A DNA stretch of 64,000 nucleotides from an uncultured virus (IMG/VR IMGVR_UViG_3300008954_000034) (Duplodnaviria > Heunggongvirae > Uroviricota > Caudoviricetes): the IMG/VR virus record IMGVR_UViG_3300008954_000034, positions 1 through 64,000 of that record. The stretch is one strand, 5' to 3'. Positions 31,201 to 63,542 of this stretch are shown one piece after another. How positions within the stretch are numbered: the stretch's first letter is position 1; each line of letters starts with the position of its first letter. The position numbers were made by a program, and so were the translations under genes. The notes beneath the pieces were generated by a model, which ran no database searches, was not told where the DNA came from, and worked only from the letters and a program-made list of their open reading frames with translations.

Positions 31201-31520
31201 GTATCGTCGTTTGCATCGATGTCCAAGAAGCTGCTGGCACGCTTCCGTGCGGCCTTCTTGCTGGTTCGGGGGTTACCGCCAATCTCGACAGTCCGACCAC
31301 CACGATGTGCAAATCTGGCTTTCATAGTCCTTCTCCCGGTGAGGGGGAATAGCTCCACCCCTGTTACCTCTGCTATCAACTCCCGAAATGCCGCCTCGTC
31401 AATTGGGTCTTGCTCGAGAATAGCATCCATACGGGCAACTTGATCTTCGTCTGCGTCCCGAAAGAACTGGGCCATTTCCATTACCCCAAGATTTCCCGGG
31501 TATGAAAGCCCACGTCTCAC
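25239..31520 (-). CDS. 2093-aa acidic modular polyprotein (putative capsid-internal cargo)
   Basis: Many small acidic domains separated by basic linkers ending in A/G; internal domain duplications; embedded among neck genes. Confidence 0.65.
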   Translation of the reverse strand: MRRGLSYPGNLGVMEMAQFFRDADEDQVARMDAILEQDPIDEAAFRELIAEVTGVELFPLTGRRTMKARFAHRGGRTVEIGGNPRTSKKAARKRASSFLDIDANDDTRSIRVAVVGVESHLAAKVAASVQRHIGATDMFDTADGREIIATFYGSDAQAYVSALRIARSTGRTVTLSRNGGMMQVFPPIYPVCDTCGKTARESKLGKQRVLACPDYLNGETDHICVDNGAPVTGMGSRIFPGDTYVLSRDVIASLVATSADVSEVTQLLESITDDFDVSDQGSGLGFVDVSIDPNKSTEATNILEDAGYMVEDNGAGRDARGPVHFLLVSGRPQWYSTSRSSQDNLGIIAAKTKLTVVSYAYPTVQVLDGDIELAVLAADLVASGSRAGEIKNAKVLASWGDDLITLYGTKSKLILANGAGDQMVMKEYASVETAIEDARQAADDIEAEEVYEVYMDVDALKDVKLITSRKRGASADTWLQIAEERKPGGVPLKEITDEYFPVGTKVETITAFSMTANPEQIYAVGDTGVVTENTGSEFTVKMDKDDEEVKFGWDEFLDSYDTTEFRSSRRKKADAASTITSLLADLDKALTDSMYVDALLQNVSDAMGHGEFGSALTEESWDKMESALLDRDLDRIEAILKYVQTTANTHVPSDPFTENPTEILALIQETREDEDGSLKGDLDQVLANFLTTVMEDDWTAKLEAAISTDNLDEIAAVLTDMQTVEPYASRVLHYSSRGATTAAKTSYEWAPVPETDDERAAMREWVKIVEDSVGNVVDHDEKMKDVAERHNLTFEELHMLAYGTEPTMMASTHEATDLVTENPTEILALIQRARDDEDGTARDELDRTLSNFLTTVMEDEWTSKLESAISTDSLDDIEAVLTAMKDVEPYASRTSSTVRVASYGPEEAAGDDDVTYHIRLEGSYLANGNPPTDLNTVFPEELLARVEDAESKESTESIYYSWDAWEWWTHLSEAGRQQALESLAGSELNILSVGAEMLCELDWYTISNIIRRITGGWDEGDQAVNDLLKPEAEADKAVSSTNRVYMYFRLKGTVAASTVLHLLDKTAGWSYADIQDNFGSFASWWGPSDYYDYYDCCSPVSYYGKKHGKKLADMVGPRIWIASADGEEQHKNADFMEPVTMYDTWVVGYAYSGGFVLPSELTGLPTNKDPESEEFQTWLDSIRDYVEGDDIYEDEIYFKEGWCAQLSAPGYMDQTDWVGPYDSEEEAENELQQLYGSVQVQDNGPFLSRRNRRTKRAGQTSFSLSPDTDIADLAQVLTGAGIPDSDYSLEGDAASMTLWIQDEDVERVTDLLDIFMEGSGGGQVTDPPFLSRRNRRTKRAGMYPGAETGYDFSTDIGQDTVSQALQEAGVGSENFYFEESGDITTLWVRDEYDDDVVRVMDSIMEQAGGLVTDPFLSSKSKRAYDGEDVVEAEPDDIVFDGTDAYQKGDIVIEETYDGAWITSDGTQYSGHNDKVDAVEHETELYGEATGTDTDDLSMSMDEWTRWEEENIIPRLTRVETGFRVKSDGRIFEDRDEAIKHHMENDQFYPNVWIQDDHGGMEMITISRTRKQMRATRVRRAQDGDEVAVGFTILFAEHDWEEDHPDEDEISDTQYLQDRETAFANVVQAIESAIPEVNTQSGVKETDDHGNLIYTVSMPKSSLATMEDWLNSNDMGGYALDTEVQYFTATEWVLFPTASIGTDTMIDIDSGWDEYTSSKKADANETGSPRGTAFWEEYKRTTVMGSTESQASVNIWESNENGDQLASNPYQDFASAEEAESWLDQEGYTEVGVAGGGVLFSAPFTDGPGETYFLLKDAGNVAELGVGGDPSDMDFPTISPEGIANAVRILNENEGGGATVAPASLYTFFDADFTDQAEIDKAVSEAVSQGLVNDDGSGFLSVAHKRRASIAEDFESELESAGVQQVVVEMSDKPGYVDLTIDNDHAQTARDIGADLGLILEDEDQPYVPGTLMDGTSTVMMFKISKDAQLEATANTEVAFEPYDWGGIIKVQTPSYTMTAGWERNDYSSLETFLDALNSGGTFTDWDEQTPVEVELLDDGGAKISSPSYSDELSADVLSDLKNYANEVIRGDEY
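27499..27789. repeat. Exact 42-bp direct repeat (27499-27540 and 27748-27789) encoding linker PFLSRRNRRTKRAG
   Basis: ccagcacgtttggtccgacgattcctacggctcagaaaagga occurs twice. Confidence 0.9.
28843..29552. repeat. Duplicated ~75-codon domain (TENPTEILALIQ...VEPYASR)
   Basis: Copies at about 28843-29063 and 29330-29552; a more diverged third copy lies at about 29590-29800. Confidence 0.85.
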
Positions 31521-36004: not shown

Positions 36005-38128
36005 TCAGTCGAAGAATTCTGGGCTGTCCAGTGAGCAGTCGTCTGGCTGGCTGCCTCTGAACGTTGATTCCCGAGCCCTCAGGCCCCGATTTGCCTGTTC
36101 CTTGTTGGCCCGGCTGACCATACGCGACTGTCGCCTGTGCTCGCCATCAGTTGCTCGAGCTCCGCTGTAGTTCGGCGCGTTGTCAACCATGTTCTTCGCA
36201 TTCTTGAAAGTAGTCTCGTCCATCTCGACTAGTGCCTTGAGCTCGGCAGCTTTCTTGCTCGGATGAATTAGACCTTTACGTAGCTGAGTGGCAACAACCT
36301 TCTCAGCTTCAAGTTTTCTCAGTTTCGAGTCCTTGACCTTACCTTCCTTCTCAAGGTCGCTCACCTTGGAGGAAAGCCCGGCCAGCTTGCGCTTGGACTC
36401 AGTGGTACCGGCTTTGCCGCGTTTCTTCGGTGCGGCGGTCCCGTTGCCGTTCTGACGTGACTGATGGAGACGACCGAGACGACGAAGTCGAGCTGCGCGT
36501 GACTTCTTTTCGTCATCGTCATCTTCCTTCTTGCCGTCGTCCTTCTTGGCATCCTCGTCATCTGCTGCCTTACGCTTCTGCGGTGTTGGCAGCTTTCCAT
36601 TGGTCGCTGACTTGGATGCTTCCCGGGTTGGGCGGGTGCCGTAGATTGCGTATACACCGTCGCCGTCAAACACACGGAATCCAGCTTCTTCCAGTTTGGC
36701 AGTGATGCCATTGACGATGTCGTTGGAAACCTCTCCACGTTTTTCATCGTCGTACTCACCCCACTGCGCCAGCACCCCAGTGACGTCAATGCCGTACGAC
36801 GCAGCTTCCGCCATGATCACAGATGTGAACTCTGGGGTATCGTGAAGCGATGACATCAGGTACGTGGTCGGTTCCGCACCCTCAGGTGGCATACCTGAAT
36901 CGTCCCATTCCCAGTCCGCAGTTGCGATCTTCGGTTTCGGATGGCGAACTGCGCTCACGCGACGTTCCTTCTTCAACCCCATCACCGGATTATCGTTGAC
37001 GTCGTCCGTGCCCTTCTGGAGCTTCGCTTCATCGTCAGCGGCGTGCGGGGGATCAGACTTACCAAGATCGGAACCGTCGGCCTTGCCTTCTTGCGCGTTC
37101 GTGGGCTCGGCGTCCTTGTTCTTACCACCTAGGTCGCCCTCTTGACCAGCGTCCGGCTTGGCGTCTGTGTTTCCACCACCAAGTGGGCCGTCCTGAGTGT
37201 CTTCCGGCTTGTCAGCGGCCTGCCGCTTACGCAACTTCAGCGGCTTTTTCGATGCCTTCTTGCCGTCATCGTCATCATCGTCATCATCGTCATCATCATC
37301 AGACGCGGCTGTAGTTTCATCCCAGTCATCGTCGTCGGTGAAGTTGAAGTCATCGTCGCTGCGCGTTTCATCTGCGGCTTTCTTAGACGCGGTCAGTGCA
37401 TTCTTAATGTCGTCGTCGGTAAGCCCAGCGCCATGCATTCCTGTGCTCCAAATCCAGATGAGTGATGGGTCGTTGTCATCGTATTCAACCCAGCCACCCT
37501 TGACACCAATCTCACGAAGTCGCTTCTTGATCTCCGACTTCGACGTCAGAGTCGTGTTGTACCCGTTGGCACTTGCCATTCTACGGACCTTCATCTTGCT
37601 GCTCCTCGACGTGGCATGGCCTCCATCGGCCTGCGCAGTGAATGGAAGAGAATTTTCACTAATATCCGATATATCGATGCCAAGCTGAGAAGCGGCTTCC
37701 TGCCTCGCTTCGTCGTATGTATAACCTTGGCCCATCAGTTCTGTTATCTTGTTAATGACTTCGGCAGCGTCCGCGCTGGTCTTCCTCCCATTGGCGGCGT
37801 CAGCGTCAATCACATCTTCATCAATATCATCGTCTTCGCTTGCCCCATCTGGGGTTGGACCACCTGTATCTTCTGAGTCCTCGCGGAATTCATCGATGGC
37901 GTTTTCAACGTCTGGTGGGGCTTCGCCAATGGTCGGGAGCTTTTCAATCCCTGTGCGAAGAATGGACTCACCAAGAGACGCTACCTTGTGCCGGTTAGCA
38001 GCGGAGGTGTCTTTGGCGTCGATGGAGGAGTCGATGGCGGTAACGTGGTCACGGAGCTTATTGGCAACGGATGCCTTCCGTGGTCCCTTCACCAACTTGT
38101 CTGCAACTAAGTCAAAAACGTCCTGCAT
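36005..38128 (-). CDS. Scaffold-like protein carrying embedded acidic modules
   Basis: Charged low-complexity sequence with a C-terminal coiled coil; many K/R-x-A linkers; position before decoration and capsid genes. Confidence 0.6.
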   Translation of the reverse strand: MQDVFDLVADKLVKGPRKASVANKLRDHVTAIDSSIDAKDTSAANRHKVASLGESILRTGIEKLPTIGEAPPDVENAIDEFREDSEDTGGPTPDGASEDDDIDEDVIDADAANGRKTSADAAEVINKITELMGQGYTYDEARQEAASQLGIDISDISENSLPFTAQADGGHATSRSSKMKVRRMASANGYNTTLTSKSEIKKRLREIGVKGGWVEYDDNDPSLIWIWSTGMHGAGLTDDDIKNALTASKKAADETRSDDDFNFTDDDDWDETTAASDDDDDDDDDDDDGKKASKKPLKLRKRQAADKPEDTQDGPLGGGNTDAKPDAGQEGDLGGKNKDAEPTNAQEGKADGSDLGKSDPPHAADDEAKLQKGTDDVNDNPVMGLKKERRVSAVRHPKPKIATADWEWDDSGMPPEGAEPTTYLMSSLHDTPEFTSVIMAEAASYGIDVTGVLAQWGEYDDEKRGEVSNDIVNGITAKLEEAGFRVFDGDGVYAIYGTRPTREASKSATNGKLPTPQKRKAADDEDAKKDDGKKEDDDDEKKSRAARLRRLGRLHQSRQNGNGTAAPKKRGKAGTTESKRKLAGLSSKVSDLEKEGKVKDSKLRKLEAEKVVATQLRKGLIHPSKKAAELKALVEMDETTFKNAKNMVDNAPNYSGARATDGEHRRQSRMVSRANKEQANRGLRARESTFRGSQPDDCSLDSPEFFD

Positions 38129-39606: not shown

Positions 39607-39902
39607 GACTTATCCGAGTCCGGGGGTTCTCTCCACCTCTTCCCGGTTCGGTAGTCTCGCCCCACCTCTTCCTCGGCGATCATTCGAATCTTTCCGTGCG
39701 GATAAACCATAGTTGACGACCGGTTTACCCGTTGGATATGATTAATAACCTGTTGAATGTGGGCTTCATGACGTTCAGCTGGGTGTCGGCCTTCACACAC
39801 CTTTCGATGGGATACGGTACCAAACCCGTGAGTTTGCATCCCGCAAAATAGGCACTTGAACGCTGTCATCTCCCTCTCCAATCTGCTCCGGTAATACAAC
39901 AT
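39603..39902 (-). CDS. Small Zn-finger-like hypothetical protein
   Basis: CLFC...H...C pattern. Confidence 0.4.
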   Translation of the reverse strand: MLYYRSRLEREMTAFKCLFCGMQTHGFGTVSHRKVCEGRHPAERHEAHIQQVINHIQRVNRSSTMVYPHGKIRMIAEEEVGRDYRTGKRWREPPDSDKS

Positions 39903-39908
39903 CTACAG

Positions 39909-40094
39909 CTACTCAAACTGTACGACGGTCTCTTTTGGTTGGACGTAGGATGTGTGCGTAACCTCTGCGGATGTTGCACACTGTACAATAACAAAGATAC
40001 CGACTGCGACTACGAGTACCAAGAACCCCTTACCACCATTCGACCAGTGGATCTTCATGTTGATCTCCTCAGATCGACTCGAGTATACGAACAA
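39909..40094 (-). CDS. Small membrane/secreted peptide (start probably MKIHWS)
   Basis: Single hydrophobic segment followed by Cys. Confidence 0.35.
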   Translation of the reverse strand: MFVYSSRSEEINMKIHWSNGGKGFLVLVVAVGIFVIVQCATSAEVTHTSYVQPKETVVQFE

Positions 40095-49862: not shown

Positions 49863-52229
49863 CTACTGGTCGTCTGAGTCCTTGAAATATCGCGCTACTT
49901 CTTCGGGGCTCAAGCCATCATCATACCACTCGTCTAGCTCTTCCTTGAAGATCTTGTATCCGTAAAGACCACCCGGCATCATCCACTCACCCATCCCAAA
50001 AAACTCCTGTGACCCGGGGTACTTTGTTTCATAAATTCGAATCGCTTCTTCCAGCCACTGTCTCTTACCAAGCTGCTGAGATGGTTCGTCTTGGTCACCA
50101 GATTGATCACTCACGTCCTCGTCTGGAAATTCAATGGTATCATACCCATTAAAAAACGTTACCACCTGATCATCAGATAGACTTGGCTTACTGTCAATCC
50201 ACTCTTTCCATGATGCTGCGTCTGACTCCTCAAACTGAGGGAAGACGTTCATGTGGTCTTCAACTGCAATACCAGTCCACTTTGAAATAATCTCAATGAA
50301 ATCCGATGTCTTGTCATTGAGCAAATGGTAAATCGCAGGGAAGTCTGCATTTTCCCCAGTCAGCTCGTAAGGATCAATCTCTTTGTAAGCATACTCTTGC
50401 CCCCACACCTCACCAATAATAAAGGGCTCAGTGTGTCCGGTCATCTTAGCAATGGTGTCTACGACGTCACTGGACGTGAATCCGTAGGCTATGACACGTT
50501 GCCGAACCGACCTCCGAGCAGTAAGTGCATCAATCACCATCTGCACATGCTCGGTAATCTTAGACCCGTAGTCGTCCCGGATGTTCGTAACCGCCATCTC
50601 GACGTCTTCCGATCCACCGTAGTCGTCGGTCAGATCTTCCCAAAGCTGGGGGTCCGACTTCTCGATGCTATCAATCGTCTGCTTGACGTTCTCGTCATCC
50701 CCGGACTCACCCGCGTCTTGCAGTGTTTCAGTAATGACACGTTTCAGTGCGTCCGTGAACTCGGTGTTCAGAAGGTCGGCGTGCTTCTGAGCCCTCGTAC
50801 TAAATAAAGTTCCGAGTTCCTCACTACTCAGATACCATTGCTGTGACTCACTGGTATCAACAAAGGTAACGTCTACGTCAAACATCCCAGATGGACCGTC
50901 CTCTGCTCCACCAGACATATCTTCAGAGATATTGTCAACCCTGACCTTATCCTGCTGACCGGGGTTATCCGGGTCGGTAACGAGGTACGTTTCCCCAATA
51001 TTAACCCCACGACGCTTGCTGGCGGGACGGACTCCAAACTTAGCCTCCCACCAATCCTGAACCAGTGGCTTGATGGTGTCCGTATCACTCGATAAGTGCT
51101 GCTTGATGTGGGAAACAAGTGCTGTCAACAAGTAGTCCTTTGCTCCCATATCTTCAACATCCTGACTGAACTCATCGGCGAGTTGGAATACACTGTCCTT
51201 AAGATCATCCTGCGCACGTTTCTGCTTCTTGGCGGTACGCTGCACCTGATCTTGGACCACAGCCTTCTCGCGGTCGACAGTGCCTACCATTCCCTGAGCA
51301 ACCCGCTGGTCGCGGTAAGGACCGGAGATGGAGTCTGACTGAACGGTGTATGTAACGGTCGGGGTGTTGGCAGTGATCTTTGAATTCCGTGATCCCGGTC
51401 TGGGTGCGGTGTAGGAGTCTGGACGTGTTCCCGCCCAGCGGCCACGGTTACCGGCACGGCCCTCAACCCAGAGTTGGACCTTACGGGCTGCGTCGTCGGC
51501 GTCATTGGCGGTTACGTAAACGTCGATCCACTCGCCCATGAAGTCGTCGTCGCCGTAGTGCATGGAACAGGGGACGTGGAATGTGGAGTTCGTTTCTGCA
51601 ACGGATGCCCGTTTCTTCTCAGACTGCTTAGAATCCACATGTTGAAACCCACCTCGAATCAGGAAGGTGGTCGACGGTGTTTCTCCAAATCCGAGCATGT
51701 CTGTGTCAGCAACGTAAGGATGCTCTTCCTCAACTTCCCAACCGAGATTCTGGAGTACGTTCTTCAATTCAGGAATCGCCGAGTCGATGATGGTGAGATC
51801 GACCTTGTCTCCCTCTTGCTCAGCCACAAACGCCAAGATACCTACGTCCTCAAGCTCGTCTTCAAGAGTACTTGCGTCTGCCGTTGCTCGCTTCGTCGTA
51901 GCTGCTCGCTTCGACACTCTCTCCCAGTTACCAGCTTCCTCGAAACCTTCAGGGAAAAACTCAACCACAATACCGCGAGAGGGGATAGTTACCCAAAAGC
52001 CGTCTAAGTTATTCGAAGATGAGTCAATAACCCCGTGCTCACCGGGGGTGACATTCGCATACTCACCGTCAACGTCGGTCTGGAGCTCCATCTCAGCCTT
52101 GAACTCGATCTTGTCGCCAACGGAAAGACTTGGAACAAGTGGTTCTTCTAAGTCATCGAACCCACCTGCAGATACGGTACGTGGGGTTGAGTCGGTAAGT
52201 AAATCACTGAGTTTTGTTACGGGCGACAT
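49863..52229 (-). CDS. 788-aa acidic modular polyprotein
   Basis: Linkers KRAATTKRATA, KKRASVA, KKQKRA, SKRRG, RAQKHA, RQRVIA; shares domains with the 2093-aa protein. Confidence 0.65.
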   Translation of the reverse strand: MSPVTKLSDLLTDSTPRTVSAGGFDDLEEPLVPSLSVGDKIEFKAEMELQTDVDGEYANVTPGEHGVIDSSSNNLDGFWVTIPSRGIVVEFFPEGFEEAGNWERVSKRAATTKRATADASTLEDELEDVGILAFVAEQEGDKVDLTIIDSAIPELKNVLQNLGWEVEEEHPYVADTDMLGFGETPSTTFLIRGGFQHVDSKQSEKKRASVAETNSTFHVPCSMHYGDDDFMGEWIDVYVTANDADDAARKVQLWVEGRAGNRGRWAGTRPDSYTAPRPGSRNSKITANTPTVTYTVQSDSISGPYRDQRVAQGMVGTVDREKAVVQDQVQRTAKKQKRAQDDLKDSVFQLADEFSQDVEDMGAKDYLLTALVSHIKQHLSSDTDTIKPLVQDWWEAKFGVRPASKRRGVNIGETYLVTDPDNPGQQDKVRVDNISEDMSGGAEDGPSGMFDVDVTFVDTSESQQWYLSSEELGTLFSTRAQKHADLLNTEFTDALKRVITETLQDAGESGDDENVKQTIDSIEKSDPQLWEDLTDDYGGSEDVEMAVTNIRDDYGSKITEHVQMVIDALTARRSVRQRVIAYGFTSSDVVDTIAKMTGHTEPFIIGEVWGQEYAYKEIDPYELTGENADFPAIYHLLNDKTSDFIEIISKWTGIAVEDHMNVFPQFEESDAASWKEWIDSKPSLSDDQVVTFFNGYDTIEFPDEDVSDQSGDQDEPSQQLGKRQWLEEAIRIYETKYPGSQEFFGMGEWMMPGGLYGYKIFKEELDEWYDDGLSPEEVARYFKDSDDQ

Positions 52230-52299: not shown

Positions 52300-55200
52300 T
52301 CAGATACCACTACACCCCGTGTCCGTTCCACAGTTCGGGCACCGGTGGCATGCTCCGTTTGGAACCATTATAGTTCCACACCCACCACACACAGGGCCTG
52401 CGTCTGCGGAAACCATAGCCGGAACCGACTGGATGGGTTCCATGGAAACGTTGTGCATCGTTACGTTCGGCATTGCTGGACGAGACGCAGCAAACGATAC
52501 GTTTTTAAATTCACCGTTACCGTTACCATTTCCGACAAGGTACTCTTCCGGTAACTCTTGGAAGGTGTGCATCTCCGGTACTTCAACTGGTGGGTTGTAT
52601 GTCAGGTACAGCCACTTGAAAATGTAATCTATAATACTGTCGGCTTCCTTGATGTCTTGGTTGGGGGTAAATCCATGCGGCTCAAATCTCATACCAGTAA
52701 ATCGGTCTACAAAGGTCTGCAATGGAATACCATGCTGGAACCCCAACGTAACCGCAGCGGCAAAGGCGTCAAGCAGCCCAGACAACGTTGACCCCTCCTT
52801 CGATATCACAACCATCAACGAAGATGGGAGACCGTCCGGATACTTACTCACCGACACGTACCCCTCGTGCCCGGAAACGTTGAACTTGTGCGTGATTGCC
52901 TTGGCGTCCCCGATAACCGGACGTGGTAGTGGAATGACAACTTCGTACTCCGGAGTTGCGTCATCACCCTCGCTCTTCGACGCGTAGGGCTGAATTGCCT
53001 TACACCCGTCACGATAAATGGACATCACCTTGATGCCCATTTCCCAGCCCTTCCAGTACACCTCTTCGATGTCCTCGACCGTGGCCGTATTTGGCATGTT
53101 GATAGTCTTCGAAACCGCTCCAGATAGGAAAGGTTGCACAGCTGCGACCATCTTCACATGGTCCATGTAGTGGATACTGCGCTCCCCGTTAAGCGGGGGA
53201 ATGGAACAATCGAATACTGGCAGGTGGTCATCCTTCAAATCTGGGCAGTTCTCGATGGTACCGTTGTCCGTCACGTAGTTAGCAATACTCGCAACGGCAT
53301 CGTCATCGTATCCGAGTGTGCGGAGGGCCTCGGGAACCAACCGGTTAACCATCTTCATCTCGCCGCCACCCACCAGACGTTTGAACTTAACAAGACCGAA
53401 CTCCGGTTCAATGCCGGTGGTGTCAGCGTCCATCATAAACGCAATAGTGTTGTGGCTCACAAACCCAGATACAACATAGGTGTTATTCATCGGGACTGAA
53501 AGGTCAACGGTCTTTTGAATACCAGCTTGGGTATTGGAAACTACAACATCGAAGTATACATCTCCGAGACTCAAAATCGCTGCGATTTTAGTTTTTCTTA
53601 GCTGCGGGTACTTACTTATCTTATCCCTTGCCCATAGTAGATTTATCGCCGCAGTTTTTCTTACTGCAATGTCCTGCCTTACTTCACTTGGAAGACCAAC
53701 AGACGCATCATAAAAGTCTTGCTGTATCACTGCATTCCTTATTGATATCCCGTGAGATTCATCGCCTGTACTGGTCGAAAGTCCGTCAGTGAGTCGGATT
53801 TTCTTCCTAGATGAAATAAATCCTATCTTATCAGCGTACACCCGTGCCGATCTTACGTTTGCCACACGAACTTCGTACCGCTGCTTATCACCAAATCTAT
53901 CTCCACTTTCTGGCTGTTGCCTCCGTGTAGTCATAATACCCAGAGACTCTAAAACAACCTGAACCTGATTAACAAGAACAGGACTCACTGTTGAAAACGC
54001 TACGCTAGGAGTTCCTTTCACCAATGTTACTGTACCATCAGCGTCAAATAACCCACGGATGAAGGCACAAACAACACTTGTGCGAGACTTAAGAATGGAA
54101 ATGGGTATTGATGCACCAAACGCCCCCTCCCCGTGGTTTCCTCTTGGTTTATCTGCAAGCCTGTTTGACTTAAGCCAGCGGACTAGTCTCCGAGATGGAA
54201 TCGTTACAGTATGACAGCCTGATCGTTCTTCAGACTGTATATGAACTCCAATACTTTCTGCCCATGACTCAAAAACTGAGTCTATATCTCTGTTATTATT
54301 AGGCACGGTAAGACAAAGACCATAGTTATCCTTAGTGTATCCATTGCCAACATAGTAACCAATGACCTCAGCCAGACGTTCATCAAGGACGTCTGGAAAA
54401 GTAATAGAAGATTCATTTCCATGTACTGGTGTTGAATCACCATGAAGAACTGTATAGGGCTTATCCATCAAAAGTTCTTCATGCCCACCAAGCCTGAAAA
54501 CCGCGAGATCGCCCGGCTTGATATCTTGGAACTTCCTCCACACATACTCACCACATTCATCAATAATACGAATCTTGTGGCCGTAAGTACCTACTAGCGC
54601 ATGCCCACGCTTCGTGGTAATTTCCATCACGTGGTCTTCTCCGTTAATGAAAAACTGAGAAGACTTCTCTACCGACTTCTCCTGCATGATATTAAGATCA
54701 AGGTCCTGCCACTTATCACCGTTTACGTCTCCAAGTACTCCCAGCGGAAGAATACCAGCAGATGACAATAACATAGTATCCGTAGCCAAACAGCCTGTAG
54801 GAGCCAGCAGCGTAAGCTGACCATTTCGAATCCCAGCCCCATGGGCAATAGAATTGCATACGTCAGCAAGGATGGTATTTGCCATGTCATATATCGGAGC
54901 AGTAAATCCATCAAGATCAAGGCCAAGACTCTCTGCGGCTGTCCGATGCTTTTCCATAACCCGCAAGTACGGGTCTCTATTCTCTTCAAACAGATCAAAT
55001 GGTCCGAGTTCATCTGCAACCTGACAGCTCATACTGGCGGCTGACGCGTGCATCAGCGCCGTTATAGCAGCGGCAACCCGACGTCCGTCCTCTGACCCAT
55101 ACGGAAGGCCCAGAACCATAAGCAGCCCACCGAGGTTGGCGTAACCAAGGCCCAACGGCCTGTGTGCCTTGCTGTTCCTTGCAATCTCCTCGGTCGGGTA

Positions 55201-56412
55201 GTCGACATTGGCAACCATGATCTCTTGTGCAAGGATGATGAGTTCCGATGCTCTACGGAAACGGTCCACTGCAAACGCACCGTCTTCGGTCTTGTACCTG
55301 ATGAGGTTATGGCTGGCAAGGTTACAGGCAGAGTTATTGATGTAGTGATACTCAGCACACGGATTACTGGCACCGAAGTAATGAGTGTTACTGACTGGGT
55401 TCCACATGTTTATCAGGGTGTCAAACTGAAGCCCCGGGTCTCCGGTCTCCCATGCGTTCTCTGCGATGGACCGGAAAAGGTCGGCTGCGTGGATCGTGTC
55501 TGACGTCTCTCCGTCGGTCACCCGTTTGAGATCCCAGTCTGACTTGTCGGCCACGGCCCGCATGAAGTCGTCTCCAACCCGAACACTGTGATTGGCATTC
55601 TGGTAGGCTACAGTTCCGTACGCATCGCCGTCAAGGCCACTACTATACCCAGCCGCTAAAAGATCACGGGCCTTCTGGTCTTCCTTGGTCTTGCACTTAA
55701 TGAAGTCTACGATGTCTGGGTGATCAATGTTCAGGATGATAATCTTTGCCGCACGTCGAGTACGGCCACCCGACTTAATTACACCAGCAAAGGCGTCGTA
55801 CCCCTTCATAAAGCTCACCGGGCCACTGGCCTTACCACCAGTTCCGGAAAGAGACTCGGTAGAACCACGAAGGGTGCTGAGGTTTACCCCAGCACCCGAC
55901 CCGCCTTTGAATATGATTGCCTCGTCCCGGGCCAGCTTCATTATTGATTCCATGCTGTCATCAACCTCGTTGATGAAGCATGCACTGGCCTGCTGAGGAC
56001 CGTCCGCACCAATATTAAACCACACCGGACTGTTGAAGGCAAAGTACTGGTTGATCAACAGCCAAGTCAGCTCATCAGAGAATGCCTCGGCGTCGTCAGC
56101 ATGGAAGTAACCGCCGTGTAAACCCCACTGCGTAATGGTACTGACAACCCGATTAATAACCTGCTTGATCGACGTCTCGCGCTGGGACGTTCCGGGTTCA
56201 CCACGAAAGTACTTAGAAACCGCGATGTTACTAGATTGATGTGACCACGTAATCGGAAATTCTACGTCTTCTTGCTTGAACACCGCTTCACCGTCAGCTC
56301 CGATAATCTTCGCGTCCCGCTTTTCCCATTCAATTTCGTCGTATGGATGAATGTCCGGATTGGAAAAGAGACGAGAGATACTTAACGCCATGGGACATCT
56401 CCTATGGTACAA
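52300..56412 (-). CDS. nrdJ: Class II (adenosylcobalamin-dependent) ribonucleotide reductase, intein-containing
   Basis: FNSPVWFN, SACFI, GGRTRRAAK, SNPCAEY, CNLAS, APTG|TI, SGAVSKTINMP; C-terminal TSCPD domain and Zn ribbon. Start probably MALSISR. Confidence 0.93.
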   Translation of the reverse strand: MYHRRCPMALSISRLFSNPDIHPYDEIEWEKRDAKIIGADGEAVFKQEDVEFPITWSHQSSNIAVSKYFRGEPGTSQRETSIKQVINRVVSTITQWGLHGGYFHADDAEAFSDELTWLLINQYFAFNSPVWFNIGADGPQQASACFINEVDDSMESIMKLARDEAIIFKGGSGAGVNLSTLRGSTESLSGTGGKASGPVSFMKGYDAFAGVIKSGGRTRRAAKIIILNIDHPDIVDFIKCKTKEDQKARDLLAAGYSSGLDGDAYGTVAYQNANHSVRVGDDFMRAVADKSDWDLKRVTDGETSDTIHAADLFRSIAENAWETGDPGLQFDTLINMWNPVSNTHYFGASNPCAEYHYINNSACNLASHNLIRYKTEDGAFAVDRFRRASELIILAQEIMVANVDYPTEEIARNSKAHRPLGLGYANLGGLLMVLGLPYGSEDGRRVAAAITALMHASAASMSCQVADELGPFDLFEENRDPYLRVMEKHRTAAESLGLDLDGFTAPIYDMANTILADVCNSIAHGAGIRNGQLTLLAPTGCLATDTMLLSSAGILPLGVLGDVNGDKWQDLDLNIMQEKSVEKSSQFFINGEDHVMEITTKRGHALVGTYGHKIRIIDECGEYVWRKFQDIKPGDLAVFRLGGHEELLMDKPYTVLHGDSTPVHGNESSITFPDVLDERLAEVIGYYVGNGYTKDNYGLCLTVPNNNRDIDSVFESWAESIGVHIQSEERSGCHTVTIPSRRLVRWLKSNRLADKPRGNHGEGAFGASIPISILKSRTSVVCAFIRGLFDADGTVTLVKGTPSVAFSTVSPVLVNQVQVVLESLGIMTTRRQQPESGDRFGDKQRYEVRVANVRSARVYADKIGFISSRKKIRLTDGLSTSTGDESHGISIRNAVIQQDFYDASVGLPSEVRQDIAVRKTAAINLLWARDKISKYPQLRKTKIAAILSLGDVYFDVVVSNTQAGIQKTVDLSVPMNNTYVVSGFVSHNTIAFMMDADTTGIEPEFGLVKFKRLVGGGEMKMVNRLVPEALRTLGYDDDAVASIANYVTDNGTIENCPDLKDDHLPVFDCSIPPLNGERSIHYMDHVKMVAAVQPFLSGAVSKTINMPNTATVEDIEEVYWKGWEMGIKVMSIYRDGCKAIQPYASKSEGDDATPEYEVVIPLPRPVIGDAKAITHKFNVSGHEGYVSVSKYPDGLPSSLMVVISKEGSTLSGLLDAFAAAVTLGFQHGIPLQTFVDRFTGMRFEPHGFTPNQDIKEADSIIDYIFKWLYLTYNPPVEVPEMHTFQELPEEYLVGNGNGNGEFKNVSFAASRPAMPNVTMHNVSMEPIQSVPAMVSADAGPVCGGCGTIMVPNGACHRCPNCGTDTGCSGI
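53449..54792 (-). mobile_element. Intein (448 aa) with LAGLIDADG homing endonuclease in nrdJ
   Basis: Starts CLATDT after APTG and ends VSHN before T; IGYYVGNG and FIRGLFDADG motifs; AT-richer than the exteins. Confidence 0.93.
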
Positions 56413-59127: not shown

Positions 59128-59759
59128 GACTCCGCATCTTGTTCACTTAATGGTAGTTCATTATACCAGTATTCGTACGCCGTTTTCCACTGAAACTCGT
59201 CGGGGGTGTAAACTTCCCCGCGACTACACTCAAGACACGACGTACTAATCTCCCCACCCTCAAGGTAAATGTAATAGGTCTTTTCGCCACACTGCGGACA
59301 CTTCGGCGTTCTTATTGGACGAGGCAGGGACTTCCATAACAACCGAAACTCAGCCTCAACCAGCTTAATCGTACGGGGGTCTTTGGAGTACTCCTCCAGC
59401 AGTTCCCGCCTCGTCCGATAGAAGGCCACGGAGTACTGAGTCCGACGCATTCCGGGTTTAATCTTCTTTGACAGGTACTTGAAAAACTTAGTGTCTCGCA
59501 GTACGAGCATCGTCCGGACAGGCCAGTTATCGCGGAATGGTGGAATGAATGACTCAATGGTAGATCGTCCGAGGTCGCCAATCTGAAAGTACCTACCGTT
59601 CTTCGACCGCCGTACGTAACGCGGTGTTAGCCTGTCGGCGGATTCCCGGTAGGTCTCGTCGGTGAACTCAAGTCGGTTCAGTTCACCCTTTACACGTGCC
59701 CGCTCGGTCTGTACGTACAACTTGGTCAGGACTGCGATATCTTGCGCGTACAGCATCAT
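59124..59759 (-). CDS. Hypothetical protein with C-terminal Zn ribbon
   Basis: CPQCG...CLEC; basic N-terminus. Confidence 0.55.
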   Translation of the reverse strand: MMLYAQDIAVLTKLYVQTERARVKGELNRLEFTDETYRESADRLTPRYVRRSKNGRYFQIGDLGRSTIESFIPPFRDNWPVRTMLVLRDTKFFKYLSKKIKPGMRRTQYSVAFYRTRRELLEEYSKDPRTIKLVEAEFRLLWKSLPRPIRTPKCPQCGEKTYYIYLEGGEISTSCLECSRGEVYTPDEFQWKTAYEYWYNELPLSEQDAES

Positions 59760-60031
59760 AGATGAACGCCCAGTCCGGTTGTTAGCACCTCAAAGAACTT
59801 GGCCTCGTCGACGATCTTGGTGGTGCTGGCCGAGTCGTCTCGGACCAAGGACAGACGAACTCGACGGTCGCACACACCTTCAACTTCTGGAACGACGTCA
59901 ATGGAAAGTTTGAATGACTCGTTATCTTGCTCGCCATGTACAACTAATGGGCCAGCCCCTGCATCAATCTGCTCACGCTGCTCACGGATGGTTGATAGTA
60001 GGGCGGACTTCTCGAATTGCTGCTCCGACAT
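59756..60031 (-). CDS. Hypothetical protein
   Basis: First gene after a sigma70-type promoter. Confidence 0.55.
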   Translation of the reverse strand: MSEQQFEKSALLSTIREQREQIDAGAGPLVVHGEQDNESFKLSIDVVPEVEGVCDRRVRLSLVRDDSASTTKIVDEAKFFEVLTTGLGVHL

Positions 60032-60054
60032 AAAAACCTCAGGTGGTTATGGTT

Positions 60055-60109
60055 ACATCAACATGATAAAGAAAAACCCCTACAGGGTCAAGTGCTCCTG
60101 TAGAGGTTT
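60055..60109 (-). promoter_or_regulatory. Overlapping terminator/promoter TTGACC-N17-TATCAT
   Basis: Stem ACCTCTACAGG/CCTGTAGGGGT plus T-tract; the -35 lies in the loop. Confidence 0.75.
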
Positions 60110-60126
60110 GTGGGGTTCCGGTCGTT

Positions 60127-60441
60127 TTACTTTGGTTCGGTCGCCTGTGTCAGGGCGGCAAGATTTACGTGATATGTCTTGGAAGTCCAAGAGTTGCCTT
60201 CGTAGTCAAGTTCAAAAACCAGCTCGGTCTCGCCCTTGGCGATCTTCTCGCCGGTGATCCGGCAGCGGGCTCGGCCAGTTGCGGTCTTTATCTCGATCAG
60301 GCTGTTCGGGTTGAACCAAGGTGTGCGGCTGATGATGGTGTCCTTATCTCCCCGCACACTGTTGCGATGGTTTTCATAAGCCTCTGCAAGTTCGTGAATC
60401 TCGTTTGCGGGCAGGGTCTTGAATTCGGTCTTGGTTTCCAT
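60127..60441 (-). CDS. Small early protein with PARP-Zn-finger-like motif
   Basis: Start METKTEF after GGAGG; ATGRARCRITGEKIAKGE. Confidence 0.55.
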   Translation of the reverse strand: METKTEFKTLPANEIHELAEAYENHRNSVRGDKDTIISRTPWFNPNSLIEIKTATGRARCRITGEKIAKGETELVFELDYEGNSWTSKTYHVNLAALTQATEPK

Positions 60442-60468
60442 GGGGCGTCCTCCGGGGTTGTTTACTTT

Positions 60469-60536
60469 GCACATGTACATGATAACACAAAGCGAGCCGG
60501 AAAGCAACCTCATGTACATGAGATGCTCTCCGGCTC
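60469..60536 (-). promoter_or_regulatory. Overlapping tmRNA terminator / promoter TTGCTT-N17-TATCAT
   Basis: Long hairpin GAGCCGGAGAGCA...TGCTTTCCGGCTC just after the tmRNA 3' end. Confidence 0.7.
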
Positions 60537-60550
60537 TTAAGCGAGGATAC

Positions 60551-60899
60551 TGGTGGAGACGTGGGGAATCGAACCCCAGTCCGAATGGTTTTACCAACCC
60601 CATTCTACGTGCGTAGTCTACTCAGACCGCAGACAGGTCATCACCGTGTATTTTGTGCTCCGGGACACGATAAAACCGGATCAACACAACCCAGAGGATT
60701 GAAGTGCCGACATTTGTCGACCGGAAATCCTGAGTCGCTATCGGCTTGCTACTCAGGGTCCGGGAGATGACTACTGTTTAAGCAGCCGCTCTCAAGGGAG
60801 TTTGCTCTTCAGCAATTATGGATGTTCTGCCCTCTTGCAGTTGGACAGCCACTGGCACGCATGAAATCAACTTACCACCCGTCGAAACCAATCGTCCCC
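60551..60899 (-). ncRNA. ssrA: tmRNA; tag peptide (A)AEEQTPLRAAA
   Basis: 5' GGGGACGATTGGTTTCGAC; 3' GGGGTTCGATTCCCCACGTCTCCACCA; G3.U pair in the acceptor stem; ATAATT-GCT resume context; tag ORF at 60778-60813. Confidence 0.93.
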
Positions 60900-60927
60900 G
60901 CTTGTGAAAGATCAATGGTACAAACTT

Positions 60928-61428
60928 CTATTCACCGTCAGCTAGTGTACGCTGTGAATTCTTAATCACCGTCTGCACTGAATCAGCTGCGGCTGTCATT
61001 CCAGCCCGGTAGTACAAGTTACCTAAAAACCAGCGGAAGAAGTTAATGCCTTGTAACGTACCGGCAGTAGCCTCTTCCCCCTGTAAGAGCAGCTGTTCCT
61101 CCCATCTCGGAAGGATCAGCTCCATCGCAGTTACAGTCACAATAGGAGAAACTGATCTGTGGTCGGCGAGCTGGTAATAGCAATATACAGTCACCGCTCT
61201 ATCACGGAGTGCGTTGATCGACTCAGGTCCAAACAACGTGACTGCCAGCTCAGCAGCTGCACTCGAGTTAGTATAAGCAACATAAAAGTTCTCGTCAAGC
61301 GCATCGTAGTAAGCAGTCACACGTAGTGACTTATACAAGAGCTCGTCCATACTCAGTTCTTGCTCTGGTTGGCCCAGAACCATGGAAGTGAGCATTAACG
61401 ATAATAGCAATGTCAAGATGTACTTCAT
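60928..61428 (-). CDS. Secreted hypothetical protein
   Basis: N-terminal signal peptide MKYILTLLLSLMLTSMVLG. Confidence 0.55.
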   Translation of the reverse strand: MKYILTLLLSLMLTSMVLGQPEQELSMDELLYKSLRVTAYYDALDENFYVAYTNSSAAAELAVTLFGPESINALRDRAVTVYCYYQLADHRSVSPIVTVTAMELILPRWEEQLLLQGEEATAGTLQGINFFRWFLGNLYYRAGMTAAADSVQTVIKNSQRTLADGE

Positions 61429-61449
61429 GGTCTTCTATCCTGTTAGACT

Positions 61450-61514
61450 GAGACGGTGCAGCCCTATTAGCAACCAAGCACGTGGCTGGTGCAGGATGGA
61501 TACTGCACCGTCTC
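61450..61514 (-). ncRNA. Unassigned stem-closed RNA element
   Basis: Perfect 12-bp stem GAGACGGTGCAG/CTGCACCGTCTC. Confidence 0.45.
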
Positions 61515-61575
61515 TTAATCGAACCCGGTGCCGCGAGATTCCACCTCGTGGAAAGGTTCAATGGGTTGTCAAAGT

Positions 61576-61666
61576 CTGGTGGTCGACTGGTTCTCCGGAG
61601 GAGTCGTTCCCCAGCCTCTGGAACAGAGCCGCAGCGCTCCTCACACTACGGTTGCCCCACCACCAG
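61576..61666 (-). ncRNA. Unassigned ~90-nt structured RNA
   Basis: Closing stem CTGGTGGT/ACCACCAG with inner GAGGAG/CTCCTC; between tRNA-Pro and a boxA-like motif. Confidence 0.5.
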
Positions 61667-61670
61667 TTTG

Positions 61671-61746
61671 TCGGAGATACAGGATTCGAACCTGTGGCCC
61701 CCTGCTCCCAAAGCAGGTGCGCTCTACCGGACTGCGCCAATCTCCG
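61671..61746 (-). tRNA. tRNA-Pro(TGG), no encoded CCA
   Basis: CGGAGAT acceptor, CCTGC-TT-TGG-GA-GCAGG anticodon arm, GGTTCGAATCC T-arm. Confidence 0.95.
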
Positions 61747-61749
61747 ATG

Positions 61750-61859
61750 AGGAGTCACCACTTGCCCCGTTGCCCGCGTTCGCGGTTCAGCCGCTCTGTC
61801 GCCTTAATCCCCGTTTCCGGTTGAGGCCGAGAGCCAACGTTGGGTTCGTGACAACCCCT
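61750..61859 (-). ncRNA. Unassigned ~110-nt branched structured RNA
   Basis: 12-bp closing stem with G.U pairs; GCTCT/AGAGC, CCG-GAAA-CGG and CCGC/GCGG hairpins. Confidence 0.55.
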
Positions 61860-61875
61860 GTCTGATTGTCAAAGT

Positions 61876-62166
61876 AACCTGCTGATAATACTACCTACAC
61901 CCCACATTACACCAATGCTGCGGGGAGGCCAGTACCGGTTACCAACCACCGCGCACTACAAAGGTTCATCTGACAGCCATCGACGCAGATGTTAGCGTCA
62001 GAATGGGTCACCCACTCCCACATTCCTCAATAGTATCCAACCGTAGTCAGCGCCAGAAAAGGAAAGTGTTAGTCTCCAGTTCTATTGATCTACGATCTGA
62101 GGTAGCAAGGACTCCACATCGTTCCACAGAACTTCGGACGGTCCTTGGTCTCGTATTCAGCAGGTT
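61876..62166 (-). ncRNA. Unassigned ~290-nt structured RNA
   Basis: Ends pair (AACCTGCTGAATAC / GTATTATCAGCAGGTT); internal stems CAAGGAC/GTCCTTG, GGAGTGGG/CCCATTCT, CCCCGCA/TGTGGGG; no sense ORF of 60 aa or more. Confidence 0.55.
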
Positions 62167-62176
62167 GTCAAAGAAC
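62165..62176 (-). promoter_or_regulatory. boxA-like antitermination motif GTTCTTTGACAA (similar motifs at 61866-61875, 61566-61575, 60902-60913)
   Basis: Resembles the rrn boxA consensus GCTCTTTAACAA; no -10 box at promoter spacing. Confidence 0.55.
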
Positions 62177-62276
62177 GTTCCCGCTACTTGGTCCATCCAC
62201 ACGAGCGGTCAGCGTGGTTGTCGATGAGCGAGGCTATGCCATGGCTCGCTCTGGTACTAATATACGTTCAACCGGG

Positions 62277-62804
62277 CTACGCAGCAACTGCCGCCCGGAC
62301 CCTCTTCATCTCATCCTGCAACCACTCAAACTTGAGCTGTTCGAATGCTCGAAAGGCTGGAATGCACTCCGGGCCGCCGTTCCACAAGTCCGGATGATCT
62401 CGAATGGTAAGCTGGGTCGCGGTACTGCGGACCAAGTCATCCACGTGATCGAGATGGTTGATCTCGCGGCACGCCTCGTAAAGCTCAATGGCGCTGCTGT
62501 AAATCCGCAGTCCAAGCAGGTGGCTCTTGGCAGCGTACGCTGCGGCCTTCTTATCCTCGTGCCCGCTGCTGCAAATGCAAGGATAAAGACACTCTGGATC
62601 GTCCGTGTGAATCAGGAAATACCCCCAGCCATTGCGCGGGTCGCGGAAGACGACCGCTGTCTGCTTGTCGCTGGTGATGTACATCGGGGCGTAGCTGCCA
62701 CCAAGCATCTTCTGAATCTTGTGCCCGGCGTCTTGCTTGGCTGCGGTCACGTTGCGACCCTCGCCCTCAACACCGTAGTACTCGACCTTGACCTTGGTAC
62801 TCAT
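62277..62804 (-). CDS. Hypothetical early protein
   Basis: GGAGG RBS; has its own sigma70-type promoter. Confidence 0.6.
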   Translation of the reverse strand: MSTKVKVEYYGVEGEGRNVTAAKQDAGHKIQKMLGGSYAPMYITSDKQTAVVFRDPRNGWGYFLIHTDDPECLYPCICSSGHEDKKAAAYAAKSHLLGLRIYSSAIELYEACREINHLDHVDDLVRSTATQLTIRDHPDLWNGGPECIPAFRAFEQLKFEWLQDEMKRVRAAVAA

Positions 62805-62829
62805 AAAATCCTCCAGTGGTTGTTACATT

Positions 62830-62885
62830 GCACATCTACATGATAAGAAAAGCCCCTGCTGGATGCAAGCTCCAACAGAGGCTCT
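62830..62885 (-). promoter_or_regulatory. Overlapping terminator/promoter TTGCAT-N17-TATCAT
   Basis: Stem GAGCCTCTGTTGGA/TCCAGCAGGGGCTT plus T-tract; the -35 lies in the loop. Confidence 0.75.
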
Positions 62886-62901
62886 TGTATAACTTAGTGA
62901 A

Positions 62902-63207
62902 TCAGTTCATCGAGTGGTCCGCAACCTTCGGGGTCTCGACCGGGACGGGAACCAGCCGGTAGTTCTCGTCGCCCTCGGTGATGCTGCCGGACATCCGACC
63001 GCCGTTGCCACCGAAGTGAATGTAGAAGCAGCAGTAAGCCCGACCGTCGATGAGGTTGTCACCCCGGGCGTGAACTTCTGCGATCTCATACGGACCGTGG
63101 TACTTGGCGTTTGGCTTGGCCACGCTCGGCGTGGTGAAAGCCTGCATGTCGAGGGTCCACTCCAGCCACATTCCGGGCTGCAAGGATTCTACTTCGGCGC
63201 GGGTCAT
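62902..63207 (-). CDS. Hypothetical early protein
   Basis: GGAGG RBS; has its own promoter. Confidence 0.6.
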   Translation of the reverse strand: MTRAEVESLQPGMWLEWTLDMQAFTTPSVAKPNAKYHGPYEIAEVHARGDNLIDGRAYCCFYIHFGGNGGRMSGSITEGDENYRLVPVPVETPKVADHSMN

Positions 63208-63243
63208 GGTGACCTCCGGGTTAGGTTACGGGCGGTGCCCGAT

Positions 63244-63296
63244 GCACATGTACATGATAACAAAACCCCCTATAGGATGCAAGTCCTATAGAGGAT
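63244..63296 (-). promoter_or_regulatory. Overlapping terminator/promoter TTGCAT-N17-TATCAT
   Basis: Stem CCTCTATAGGA/TCCTATAGGGG plus T-tract; the -35 lies in the loop. Confidence 0.75.
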
Positions 63297-63542
63297 TAGT
63301 AAGAGCACACATGACTGCGTTGTTGAAAACCGAGGAGTCTGAGGCTACTTATCCCATCCAATAACCTCGATAAGAACTGCGAATTCATCACCGGTTGGAA
63401 TTGAAATCTGGTTTCCACCCTTTTAGTTTCAAAACCTCGGTGGAGCTTTCACCCCACCGAGATCCAAGGGGAAGGAGGCACTACCTGCCGAAGATGCCTC
63501 ACACAATGATAGACAAAGCGAGAACCCCATGGACCTCGTTTA

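What the first reader, a model, noticed from the sequence alone, without database searches (positions are those of the whole stretch)
61876..62166. ~290-nt highly structured RNA of unknown class
Seen: the 5' end AACCTGCTGAATAC pairs with the 3' end GTATTATCAGCAGGTT and encloses several stems (CAAGGAC/GTCCTTG, GGAGTGGG/CCCATTCT, TCTGAC/GTCAGA, GACGC/GCGTC, CCCCGCA/TGTGGGG). BoxA-like motifs bracket it on both sides. I see no RNase P (GAGGAAAGUCC), SRP, group I/II intron or B12-box signature. Large tRNA-adjacent phage ncRNAs (GOLLD, ROOL) are a precedent, but I cannot match it to them.
Basis: partly seen in the sequence, partly recalled or inferred. Interest (0 to 1): 0.7.

Follow-up and report, generated by a model that had tools for sequence, protein, structure and literature searches.

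The report
Unclassified folded RNA in marine phage
A marine bacterial virus carries, at the head of a small cluster of RNA genes that uses the bacterial ribosomal-RNA anti-termination signal, a 291-base folded RNA that matches no catalogued family and has a trace of expression, but no relative was found and its job is untested.

Summary
The feature is real and lies on the minus strand (62166 to 61876) of a ~128-kb tailed phage. It is the first unit of an 848-nt protein-free cluster: boxA, RNA A, boxA, unit B, tRNA-Pro, unit C, boxA, hairpins D and E, then one ORF and a tmRNA. All 3 minus-strand copies of CTTTGACAA in 127 kb lie here, and the same 9-mer stands beside the 16S gene in 19 of 25 rRNA loci of a candidate host phylum. 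A 10-bp stem closes the RNA exactly between two boxA sites. Folding beats 200 of 200 shuffles (z -3.5), but ranks only 4th of 89 genome windows; the interior fold is ambiguous. One metatranscriptome has a single 168-nt contig inside the RNA and nothing else in 3.6 kb. No Rfam family matches (GOLLD, ROOL, raiA, RNase P, SRP, group I tested). No homologue was found in any search, so there is no covariation. Best reading: a stable trans-acting phage RNA cut from an rRNA-style precursor, probably binding a host translation or RNA-defence protein (inferred), of the same kind as T4 RNAC/RNAD but a family of one so far.

The parts
61876..62166 (-). RNA A, 291 nt, closed multibranch RNA (the finding)
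   Evidence: fold; no Rfam match; RNA contig inside it
62157..62166 (-). 5' strand of the closing stem P1 (pairs with 61885-61876)
61876..61885 (-). 3' strand of the closing stem P1
62106..62147 (-). 5' hairpin arm, three stacked stems with a purine-rich internal loop
   Evidence: pair probabilities 0.82-0.92
62054..62084 (-). weak hairpin with CUAACAC loop and pyrimidine-rich 3' strand
   Evidence: 0.65-0.91
62000..62018 (-). 8-bp hairpin (loop UGA, or a GUGA tetraloop with one bulged C)
   Evidence: 0.96-0.99
61982..61999 (-). alternative 5-bp hairpin with loop UAACAUCU, a candidate T-loop (motif recalled, not tested)
   Evidence: 0.11 at 37 C, in the minimum-energy fold at 10 C
61900..61925 (-). 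3' hairpin arm
   Evidence: 0.89-0.96
61881..62048 (.). stretch covered by the only contig of metatranscriptome run X4 in 59700-63300 (168 nt, depth 6; RNA positions 119-286)
62164..62176 (-). boxA 1 (GTTCTTTGACAAC), its last three bases start P1
61866..61874 (-). boxA 2 core, 1 nt after the 3' end of RNA A
61566..61574 (-). boxA 3 core, after unit C
62259..62287 (-). candidate sigma-70 promoter (TTGCTG, 17 nt, TATATT)
   Evidence: regular-expression match; below the threshold of the scan; inference
62197..62251 (-). leader with two small hairpins before boxA 1
   Evidence: folding not above shuffles (z -0.21)
61749..61860 (-). unit B, closed three-way-junction fold ending 2 nt before the tRNA
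   Evidence: z -2.08, 4 of 200; no Rfam match
61670..61746 (-). tRNA-Pro (UGG)
   Evidence: 65.4 bits
61576..61666 (-). unit C, closed two-arm fold right after the tRNA
   Evidence: z -1.83, 10 of 200; no credible Rfam match
61517..61565 (-). hairpin D
   Evidence: z -2.38, 4 of 200
61450..61514 (-). hairpin E, 12-bp perfect closing stem
   Evidence: z -5.25, 0 of 200
60928..61428 (-). 166-aa ORF with hydrophobic N-terminus, TPR-like by language-model features; no sequence relative found
   Evidence: score 0.94, lead; 1 of 188 candidates: itself
60551..60899 (-). tmRNA, tag AEEQTPLRAAA
   Evidence: 122.2 bits

Best explanation
RNA A is a stable, free non-coding RNA of the phage. Steps: (1) host RNA polymerase transcribes the protein-free cluster from the candidate promoter at 62287-62259 or by read-through from the phage-type promoter near 62840-62868 (inferred); (2) three boxA sites recruit host NusB/S10, as in rRNA operons, so that the untranslated precursor escapes Rho termination and folds unit by unit (motif identity shown by sequence; Nus binding inferred); (3) host nucleases that mature the tRNA, and trimming back to the closing stems, release A, B, the tRNA and C as separate species (inferred; A folds on its own in calculation, and an RNA fragment stops 5 nt inside its predicted 3' end); (4) the mature RNA acts in trans by binding a host protein or the ribosome, as a scaffold or decoy that keeps translation of phage messages going or soaks up an RNA-directed defence factor, in step with the tRNA and tmRNA beside it (inferred from company only). 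My odds: discrete real RNA about 0.8; rRNA-style anti-terminated precursor about 0.85; step 4 about 0.5 if the RNA is real.
For: Same-strand cluster with tRNA-Pro and tmRNA in an 848-nt gap between ORFs. 3 of 3 minus-strand CTTTGACAA copies in 127,455 bases lie within 609 nt, at the unit borders; rough chance 1e-4 genome-wide. The 9-mer lies within 130 nt before the 16S gene in 14 of 25, within 700 nt after it in 14 of 25, and in either in 19 of 25 rRNA loci of the phylum that holds the best GroEL match; the 12-mer GTTCTTTGACAA is exact in 5 of 25. None of the three is followed by a -10 element. BoxA recruits NusB and is necessary and sufficient for the rRNA anti-termination complex (PMC10250234, passages). 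P1 begins in boxA 1 and ends 1 nt before boxA 2. One RNA-library contig lies wholly inside A, with zero cover elsewhere in 59700-63300; chance placement 3.6-6.8%. No long complementarity to the phage's own genome: best other matches 11-15 nt, E 0.44 or worse, which argues against an antisense role on phage genes.
Against: No homologue, hence no covariation, in any search. Folding energy ranks only 4th of 89 windows, and the interior (positions 60-240) has several folds within 7 kcal/mol. The RNA evidence is one contig, one run, no strand, from the same study as the DNA runs that may be the source of the window; the tmRNA and tRNA, expected to be abundant, have no cover in that run. The host is not known: the GroEL link is a long branch with support 88, and the phage tmRNA is only 58-64% identical to tmRNAs of that phylum and has a different tag. 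No partner protein, binding motif or target was identified.
Confidence: 0.45

Rival explanations
1. A is only a structured leader or processing spacer of the pre-tRNA/tmRNA transcript (like rRNA leader-trailer helices), or the decaying relic of such a unit, with no job once cut out.
For: It sits between two boxA sites at the head of the precursor; modest folding signal and ambiguous interior; absent from all 16 related phage records searched.
Against: 291 nt is long for a spacer; it pairs only with itself, not around the tRNA; the only RNA cover in the region is on A, not on the tRNA or tmRNA; the relatives are distant (capsid protein 25-75% identical) and mostly fragments.
Confidence: 0.2
2. 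A works as an RNA-only oligomer or cage, like ROOL and GOLLD, assembling through loop-loop contacts.
For: Same setting (phage tRNA islands; PMC12286853, passages); A has short palindromes (GAUC twice, ACCGGU, GCGC, GGCC) that could pair between molecules (seen in sequence).
Against: Half the size of ROOL (model 574 positions) and a third of GOLLD members of over 800 nt; no match to either model; such palindromes are common by chance; no covariation.
Confidence: 0.15
3. A is the 5' domain of one ~720-nt RNA (62166-61450) that carries the tRNA in a linker, as some GOLLD RNAs do.
For: The cluster has GOLLD-like total length, and tRNAs occur in GOLLD linkers (PMC12286853, passage).
Against: No GOLLD match at E up to 10; boxA sites separate the units; each unit has its own closing stem and A pairs with nothing outside itself; the RNA contig stops near A's 3' end.
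Confidence: 0.07
4. A is a ribozyme (self-cleaving, or a very diverged RNase P or group I derivative) that processes the precursor.
For: Position at the head of a precursor that needs cutting; a closed multibranch fold of ribozyme size; a 7-bp helix (positions 79-85 with 134-140) could cross a long interior helix as a pseudoknot.
Against: No Rfam ribozyme, RNase P or intron match at E up to 10; the crossing helices have probability 0.0 in the nested model and no covariation support.
Confidence: 0.06
5. The fold is chance in an intergenic gap.
For: About 20 perfect 10-bp helices of similar span exist in the genome; three windows fold better by z-score.
Against: Exact fit of the closing stem between two of only three minus-strand boxA cores; tRNA and tmRNA neighbours; RNA contig inside it.
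Confidence: 0.05

Closest known systems
Phage T4 RNAC and RNAD
   Same: Stable small RNAs transcribed from a phage tRNA region with unknown role (PMC3014915, one passage; PMC9697503, passages). This is the kind of thing A is.
   Different: A is 291 nt, about twice their recalled length (120-140 nt, from memory); no sequence match to T4 or any GenBank phage in blastn; the cluster here is punctuated by boxA sites.
GOLLD (RF02032) and ROOL (RF03087)
   Same: Large structured phage RNAs near tRNA islands, function unknown; GOLLD linkers can hold tRNAs (PMC12286853, passages).
   Different: No match to either model; much shorter; no evidence for pseudoknots or oligomers here.
rRNA operon leader and spacer boxA (NusB/S10 anti-termination)
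   Same: Identical core sequence to boxA in 19 of 25 rRNA loci of a candidate host phylum; placed directly before stable-RNA units; mechanism from PMC10250234 (passages).
   Different: Three copies about 300 nt apart in a phage cluster rather than two per operon; no rRNA follows; Nus binding not tested.
raiA motif RNA (RF03072), RNase P RNA type A (RF00010), large bacterial SRP RNA (RF01854)
   Same: Closed multibranch RNAs of 200-370 nt whose ends pair.
   Different: No match to any of the three models.

Membership tests
GOLLD (RF02032) | Match to the covariance model (conserved 3' domain) | tested here: not met
   no hit at E up to 10; 0 candidates in the own genome (no control genome passed the cut-off, so that search had no positive control)
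GOLLD (RF02032) | Length often over 800 nt, near tRNA genes of a phage | tested here: not met
   291 nt (whole cluster about 720 nt); tRNA context met
ROOL (RF03087) | Match to the covariance model, about 575 nt | tested here: not met
   no hit in cmscan; one search also empty but nothing rang in its controls
GOLLD/ROOL | Forms RNA-only oligomeric cages | not testable with these tools
   needs cryo-EM or mass photometry
RNase P RNA, bacterial type A (RF00010) | Match to the model with the P4 pseudoknot and conserved regions | tested here: not met
   (3 candidates scored, none at E up to 10; controls rang in 11 of 14)
raiA motif (RF03072) | Match to the covariance model | tested here: not met
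   (no control genome passed the cut-off)
Large bacterial SRP RNA (RF01854) | Match to the model (Alu domain and helix 8) | tested here: not met
   (controls over cut-off in 3 of 14)
Group I intron (RF00028) | Match to the catalytic-core model; interrupts a gene | tested here: not met
   (controls over cut-off in 2 of 14); the flanks are boxA sites, not exon halves
Any of 4227 Rfam families (riboswitches, small ribozymes, 6S, Y RNA, manA, group II) | Match at E up to 10 on the 311-nt stretch, both strands | tested here: not met
   0 matches
Retron msr-msd or Y RNA | A reverse transcriptase or Ro60 gene in the same genome | tested here: inconclusive
   none recognised by eye in ORF lists; only 17 proteins were scanned with Pfam
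rRNA-type boxA | Sequence identity with boxA of rRNA leaders and spacers | tested here: met
   19 of 25 loci carry the 9-mer, 5 of 25 the exact 12-mer
rRNA-type boxA | Binds NusB/S10 and prevents Rho termination | not testable with these tools
   needs binding and read-through assays
Phage tRNA-region stable RNAs of unknown function (T4 RNAC/RNAD kind) | Non-coding, encoded in a phage tRNA region | tested here: met
Phage tRNA-region stable RNAs of unknown function (T4 RNAC/RNAD kind) | Accumulates as a discrete stable species | tested here: inconclusive
   one 168-nt RNA contig inside the unit, no strand or ends

The most novel reading that the evidence does not exclude
RNA A is the founding member of a new class of ~290-nt phage RNAs with a tertiary fold of their own, made from a mini rRNA-style operon that borrows the host's Nus anti-termination three times over, and it either binds the ribosome or a defence nuclease, or self-assembles, to keep a slow-growing host translating during infection.
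Probability: 0.3. Interest if true: 0.75.

Novelty: new variant of a known kind. Interest (0 to 1): 0.45.

Why it matters
Phage tRNA regions have long been known to make stable RNAs whose job nobody knows (T4 RNAC/RNAD), and recent structures of GOLLD and ROOL showed that such RNAs can have unexpected architecture. A compact 291-nt example with sharp borders is easy to synthesise, probe and image, and the three boxA sites give a clean test of whether phages run their RNA clusters through the host's rRNA anti-termination machinery. Its value is limited for now by being a single sequence from an uncultured phage with an unknown host.

Tried and rejected
Homologue searches, all negative. blastn of A against GenBank phages (9 records, 20-23 nt chance hits, E 3) and plasmids (1 record); of the whole cluster against phages, the 30 rows listed of 1481 records were all tRNA matches. 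Capsid-protein relatives: 18 viral loci, 16 of other phages; DNA search gave only tRNA pieces and 14-24 nt matches; single-sequence covariance model R1 matched 1 of 17 records, itself, and 0 in 1,075,079 bases of 11 relatives; unfiltered on two tRNA regions it gave only short hairpins. Pattern scans of viral contigs: boxA plus P1 start, 2 other loci, both coding DNA; boxA-275-305 nt-boxA, 80 loci examined of 120 or more, only self; possible pseudoknot pair, 55 loci, only self; hairpin plus UAACA loop, 17 loci, only self; 5' arm, 24 loci, only self apart from a 28-nt local match that reflects the pattern. These exact patterns would miss any diverged relative. R1 in bacterial genomes: 0 of 5, 0 of 79, 0 of 151, with no positive control. 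The closest long relative found (71% capsid identity, 147-kb metagenome contig, L181) could not be read beyond its 2-kb locus, so the most informative comparison is open. No capsid relative among species genomes. A boxA-led array in relative G002 shows no similarity to A (31 of 100 shuffles score as well). Rejected by test: plus-strand reading (weaker fold; the boxA sites, tRNA and tmRNA are all minus strand); the boxA motifs as -35 promoter elements; coding; antisense to own genes. Rejected by eye against recalled consensus motifs, not by a call: group II domain V, HDV-like theta ribozyme after the tRNA, kink-turn, 5S-like identity of unit B. Supplements of PMC10690425: five short motifs and one record number gave no hit, but files 1, 2 and 4 of 6 were not searched and three more were too large to read; its candidates are at most 151 nt long. 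Lack of RNA cover on the tRNA and tmRNA in run X4 proves nothing about their expression.

Full report
What the window is. The window is part of a tailed phage: it encodes a tail-sheath domain, a class II ribonucleotide reductase with an intein (17 proteins scanned), and one tRNA and one tmRNA. A 127,741-base IMG/VR contig is identical over the 12.5 kb compared and supplies the rest of the genome. The three DNA runs that hold the region are marine metagenomes of one study and may be its source. Capsid-protein relatives are 25-75% identical among viral contigs and up to 77% among proteins. The host is unknown: the phage GroEL (60-68% identical to its best matches in a capped scan) groups on a long branch with three unnamed bacteria, support 88.

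The observation. The quoted sequences are on the minus strand. The RNA (here A) runs 62166 to 61876. It folds to -108.3 kcal/mol, z -3.51, better than all 200 shuffles. Ten perfect pairs close it, and three inner hairpins have pair probabilities of about 0.9 or more; a fourth, weaker hairpin (62084-62054) is also predicted. The interior between positions 60 and 240 has several folds within 7 kcal/mol, and the minimum-energy fold changes at 10 C, so only the frame of the structure can be stated. Energy alone is not exceptional: A ranks 4th of 89 windows of the same length in this genome, and about 20 perfect 10-bp helices of similar span exist in 127 kb. All six frames have stops.

The surroundings carry the argument. 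A is the first unit of an 848-nt gap between two minus-strand ORFs. In order: a candidate promoter (62287-62259; under the threshold), two leader hairpins, boxA 1, A, boxA 2, unit B (three-way junction), tRNA-Pro, unit C, boxA 3, hairpins D and E, a 166-aa ORF, and the tmRNA. The core CTTTGACAA occurs three times on the minus strand of 127,455 bases, all within 609 nt (62173, 61874, 61574), and twice on the plus strand elsewhere; a rough chance figure is 1e-4. To test the boxA call I fetched 25 full-length 16S loci from the phylum of the best GroEL match (61 genomes searched, 37 with a match): the 9-mer lies within 130 nt before the 16S gene in 14 of 25, within 700 nt after it in 14 of 25, in either in 19 of 25; boxA 1 matches as an exact 12-mer in 5 of 25. 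This shows that the motif is an rRNA-type boxA; it does not name the host, and the phage tmRNA is only 58-64% identical to those of that phylum, with a different tag. BoxA binds NusB and is necessary and sufficient for the rRNA anti-termination complex (PMC10250234, passages). The closing stem of A starts in the last bases of boxA 1 and ends one base before boxA 2. When the whole cluster is folded, A pairs only with itself (97.8 summed pairs inside, 0.0 with other units), which argues against one long RNA.

Expression. One metatranscriptome run of the same study (X4) has a single contig on 59700-63300: 168 nt, depth 6, at 61881-62048, that is RNA positions 119-286, stopping 5 nt short of the predicted 3' end; the three DNA runs cover the region evenly. 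A randomly placed contig would fall inside A 3.6-6.8% of the time. This is a weak but specific hint: one run, no strand, contigs not reads, not an independent study, and no silent control region beyond the 3.6 kb laid.

What it is not. Rfam (4227 families) gives nothing on the 311-nt stretch at E up to 10 and only the tRNA on the rest of the cluster. Single-family searches of the genome for GOLLD, ROOL, RNase P type A, raiA, group I intron and large SRP were empty (the ROOL, GOLLD and raiA searches had no control over the cut-off). A has no long complementarity to the phage genome. No reverse transcriptase or Ro60 was recognised by eye in the ORF lists; this was not a profile scan.

Relatives. 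None found. The searches, with counts, are listed under Tried and rejected: blastn, a one-sequence covariance model over 16 related phage records and 235 genome searches in bacteria (5, 79 and 151, with overlap), and five exact-pattern scans of viral contigs. The relatives within reach are distant and share none of the 13 small neighbouring genes tested by tblastn, and the closest long contig could not be read. Absence of homologues is therefore weak evidence, but it leaves the structure without covariation. One relative (G002, capsid 59% identical) has its own run of boxA-led folded units after its tRNA array, unrelated in sequence, which suggests that the design, not the RNA, is shared in this phage group.

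How it most likely works. Shown: a non-coding, minus-strand unit with a closed fold, bounded by rRNA-type boxA sites, in line with a tRNA and a tmRNA. Inferred: anti-terminated transcription of one precursor, release of the units by host nucleases, and action of A in trans on a host protein or the ribosome in support of phage translation or against RNA-directed defence (overall 0.45). Rivals: a mere leader or relic (0.2), an RNA-only oligomer (0.15), part of one 720-nt RNA (0.07), a ribozyme (0.06), chance (0.05).

Comparison with what is known. It works, as far as can be told, like the stable RNAs of phage tRNA regions: T4 RNAC and RNAD, whose roles are unknown (PMC3014915, one passage; PMC9697503, passages), and the larger GOLLD and ROOL RNAs (PMC12286853, passages). 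It is a member of none of the modelled families. A survey of viral structured RNAs lists candidates of at most 151 nt (PMC10690425, passages); part of its supplements could not be searched, so a fragment of A may be there. A preprint on language-model mining (10.64898/2026.09.22.753630, passages) had no bearing. Eight literature searches (listings and abstract starts) showed no paper on boxA-punctuated phage RNA clusters, within a library that lacks most subscription journals. Earlier notes of this scan describe several comparable boxA-linked phage RNAs in other genomes; they are unchecked AI notes, none matched by sequence, and they lower the surprise of the setting.

Verdict. A probably real, unclassified phage RNA with a well-supported transcription signal and a trace of expression, but a family of one with an uncertain interior and no tested function: new variant of a known kind, interest 0.45.

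Noticed in passing
window 61857-61849 with 61571-61563 (minus strand): A 9-bp perfect helix can join the start of unit B to boxA 3, enclosing B, the tRNA and C in one ~300-nt unit, like an rRNA leader-trailer helix; it competes with B's own closing stem and is in the minimum-energy fold of the cluster.
   Followed up: partly
window 61749-61860, 61576-61666, 61517-61565, 61450-61514 (minus): Four further folded units (B, C, D, E) with no Rfam match; E has the strongest folding signal of the cluster (z -5.25). No relatives by nhmmer in 11 related phages.
   Followed up: partly
   Followed up: no
window 60551-60899: Phage tmRNA with tag AEEQTPLRAAA; the tmRNA of relative G002 has ANEEFRAAA. Both end in RAAA, unlike the YALAA/YAMAA/YAYAA tags of the bacterial tmRNAs examined.
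   Followed up: partly
window 52300-56412: Class II (B12-dependent) ribonucleotide reductase with a LAGLIDADG intein and a C-terminal TSCPD domain.
   Followed up: no
window 25239-31520, 36005-38128, 49863-52229: Very large acidic proteins with many short basic KRA/KKA-type repeats near the capsid gene; not scanned against any family library.
   Followed up: no
G000:C1:73914-75901 (beyond the window; L255): Phage-encoded GroEL and a GroES-like gene; GroEL sits on a long branch.
   Followed up: partly
L054 about 6684-6956 (G017 about 39680-39960): A 46-bp perfect inverted repeat enclosing about 180 nt in the part of the genome outside the window; could be a small mobile element or an assembly artefact.
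   Followed up: no
G002:C1:92400-94100, minus strand (in L043): About 1.5 kb without long ORFs after a 36-tRNA array, with several boxA-like sites and closed folded units of 70-200 nt plus tRNA-like pieces; no Rfam match at gathering scores; unrelated to RNA A.
   Followed up: partly
L087 601-1200 (also L078): Chance hit of the boxA pattern: a tandem cassette with long end-pairing, terminators and a weak match to Streptococcus sRNA SpF66 (36.2 bits, under the cut-off); looks like a small-RNA or type I toxin-antitoxin pair in a prophage.
   Followed up: no
window 60928-61428: The ORF between the RNA cluster and the tmRNA looks like a small secreted TPR-type protein by language-model features (0.94, a lead) and has no sequence relative.
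   Followed up: partly
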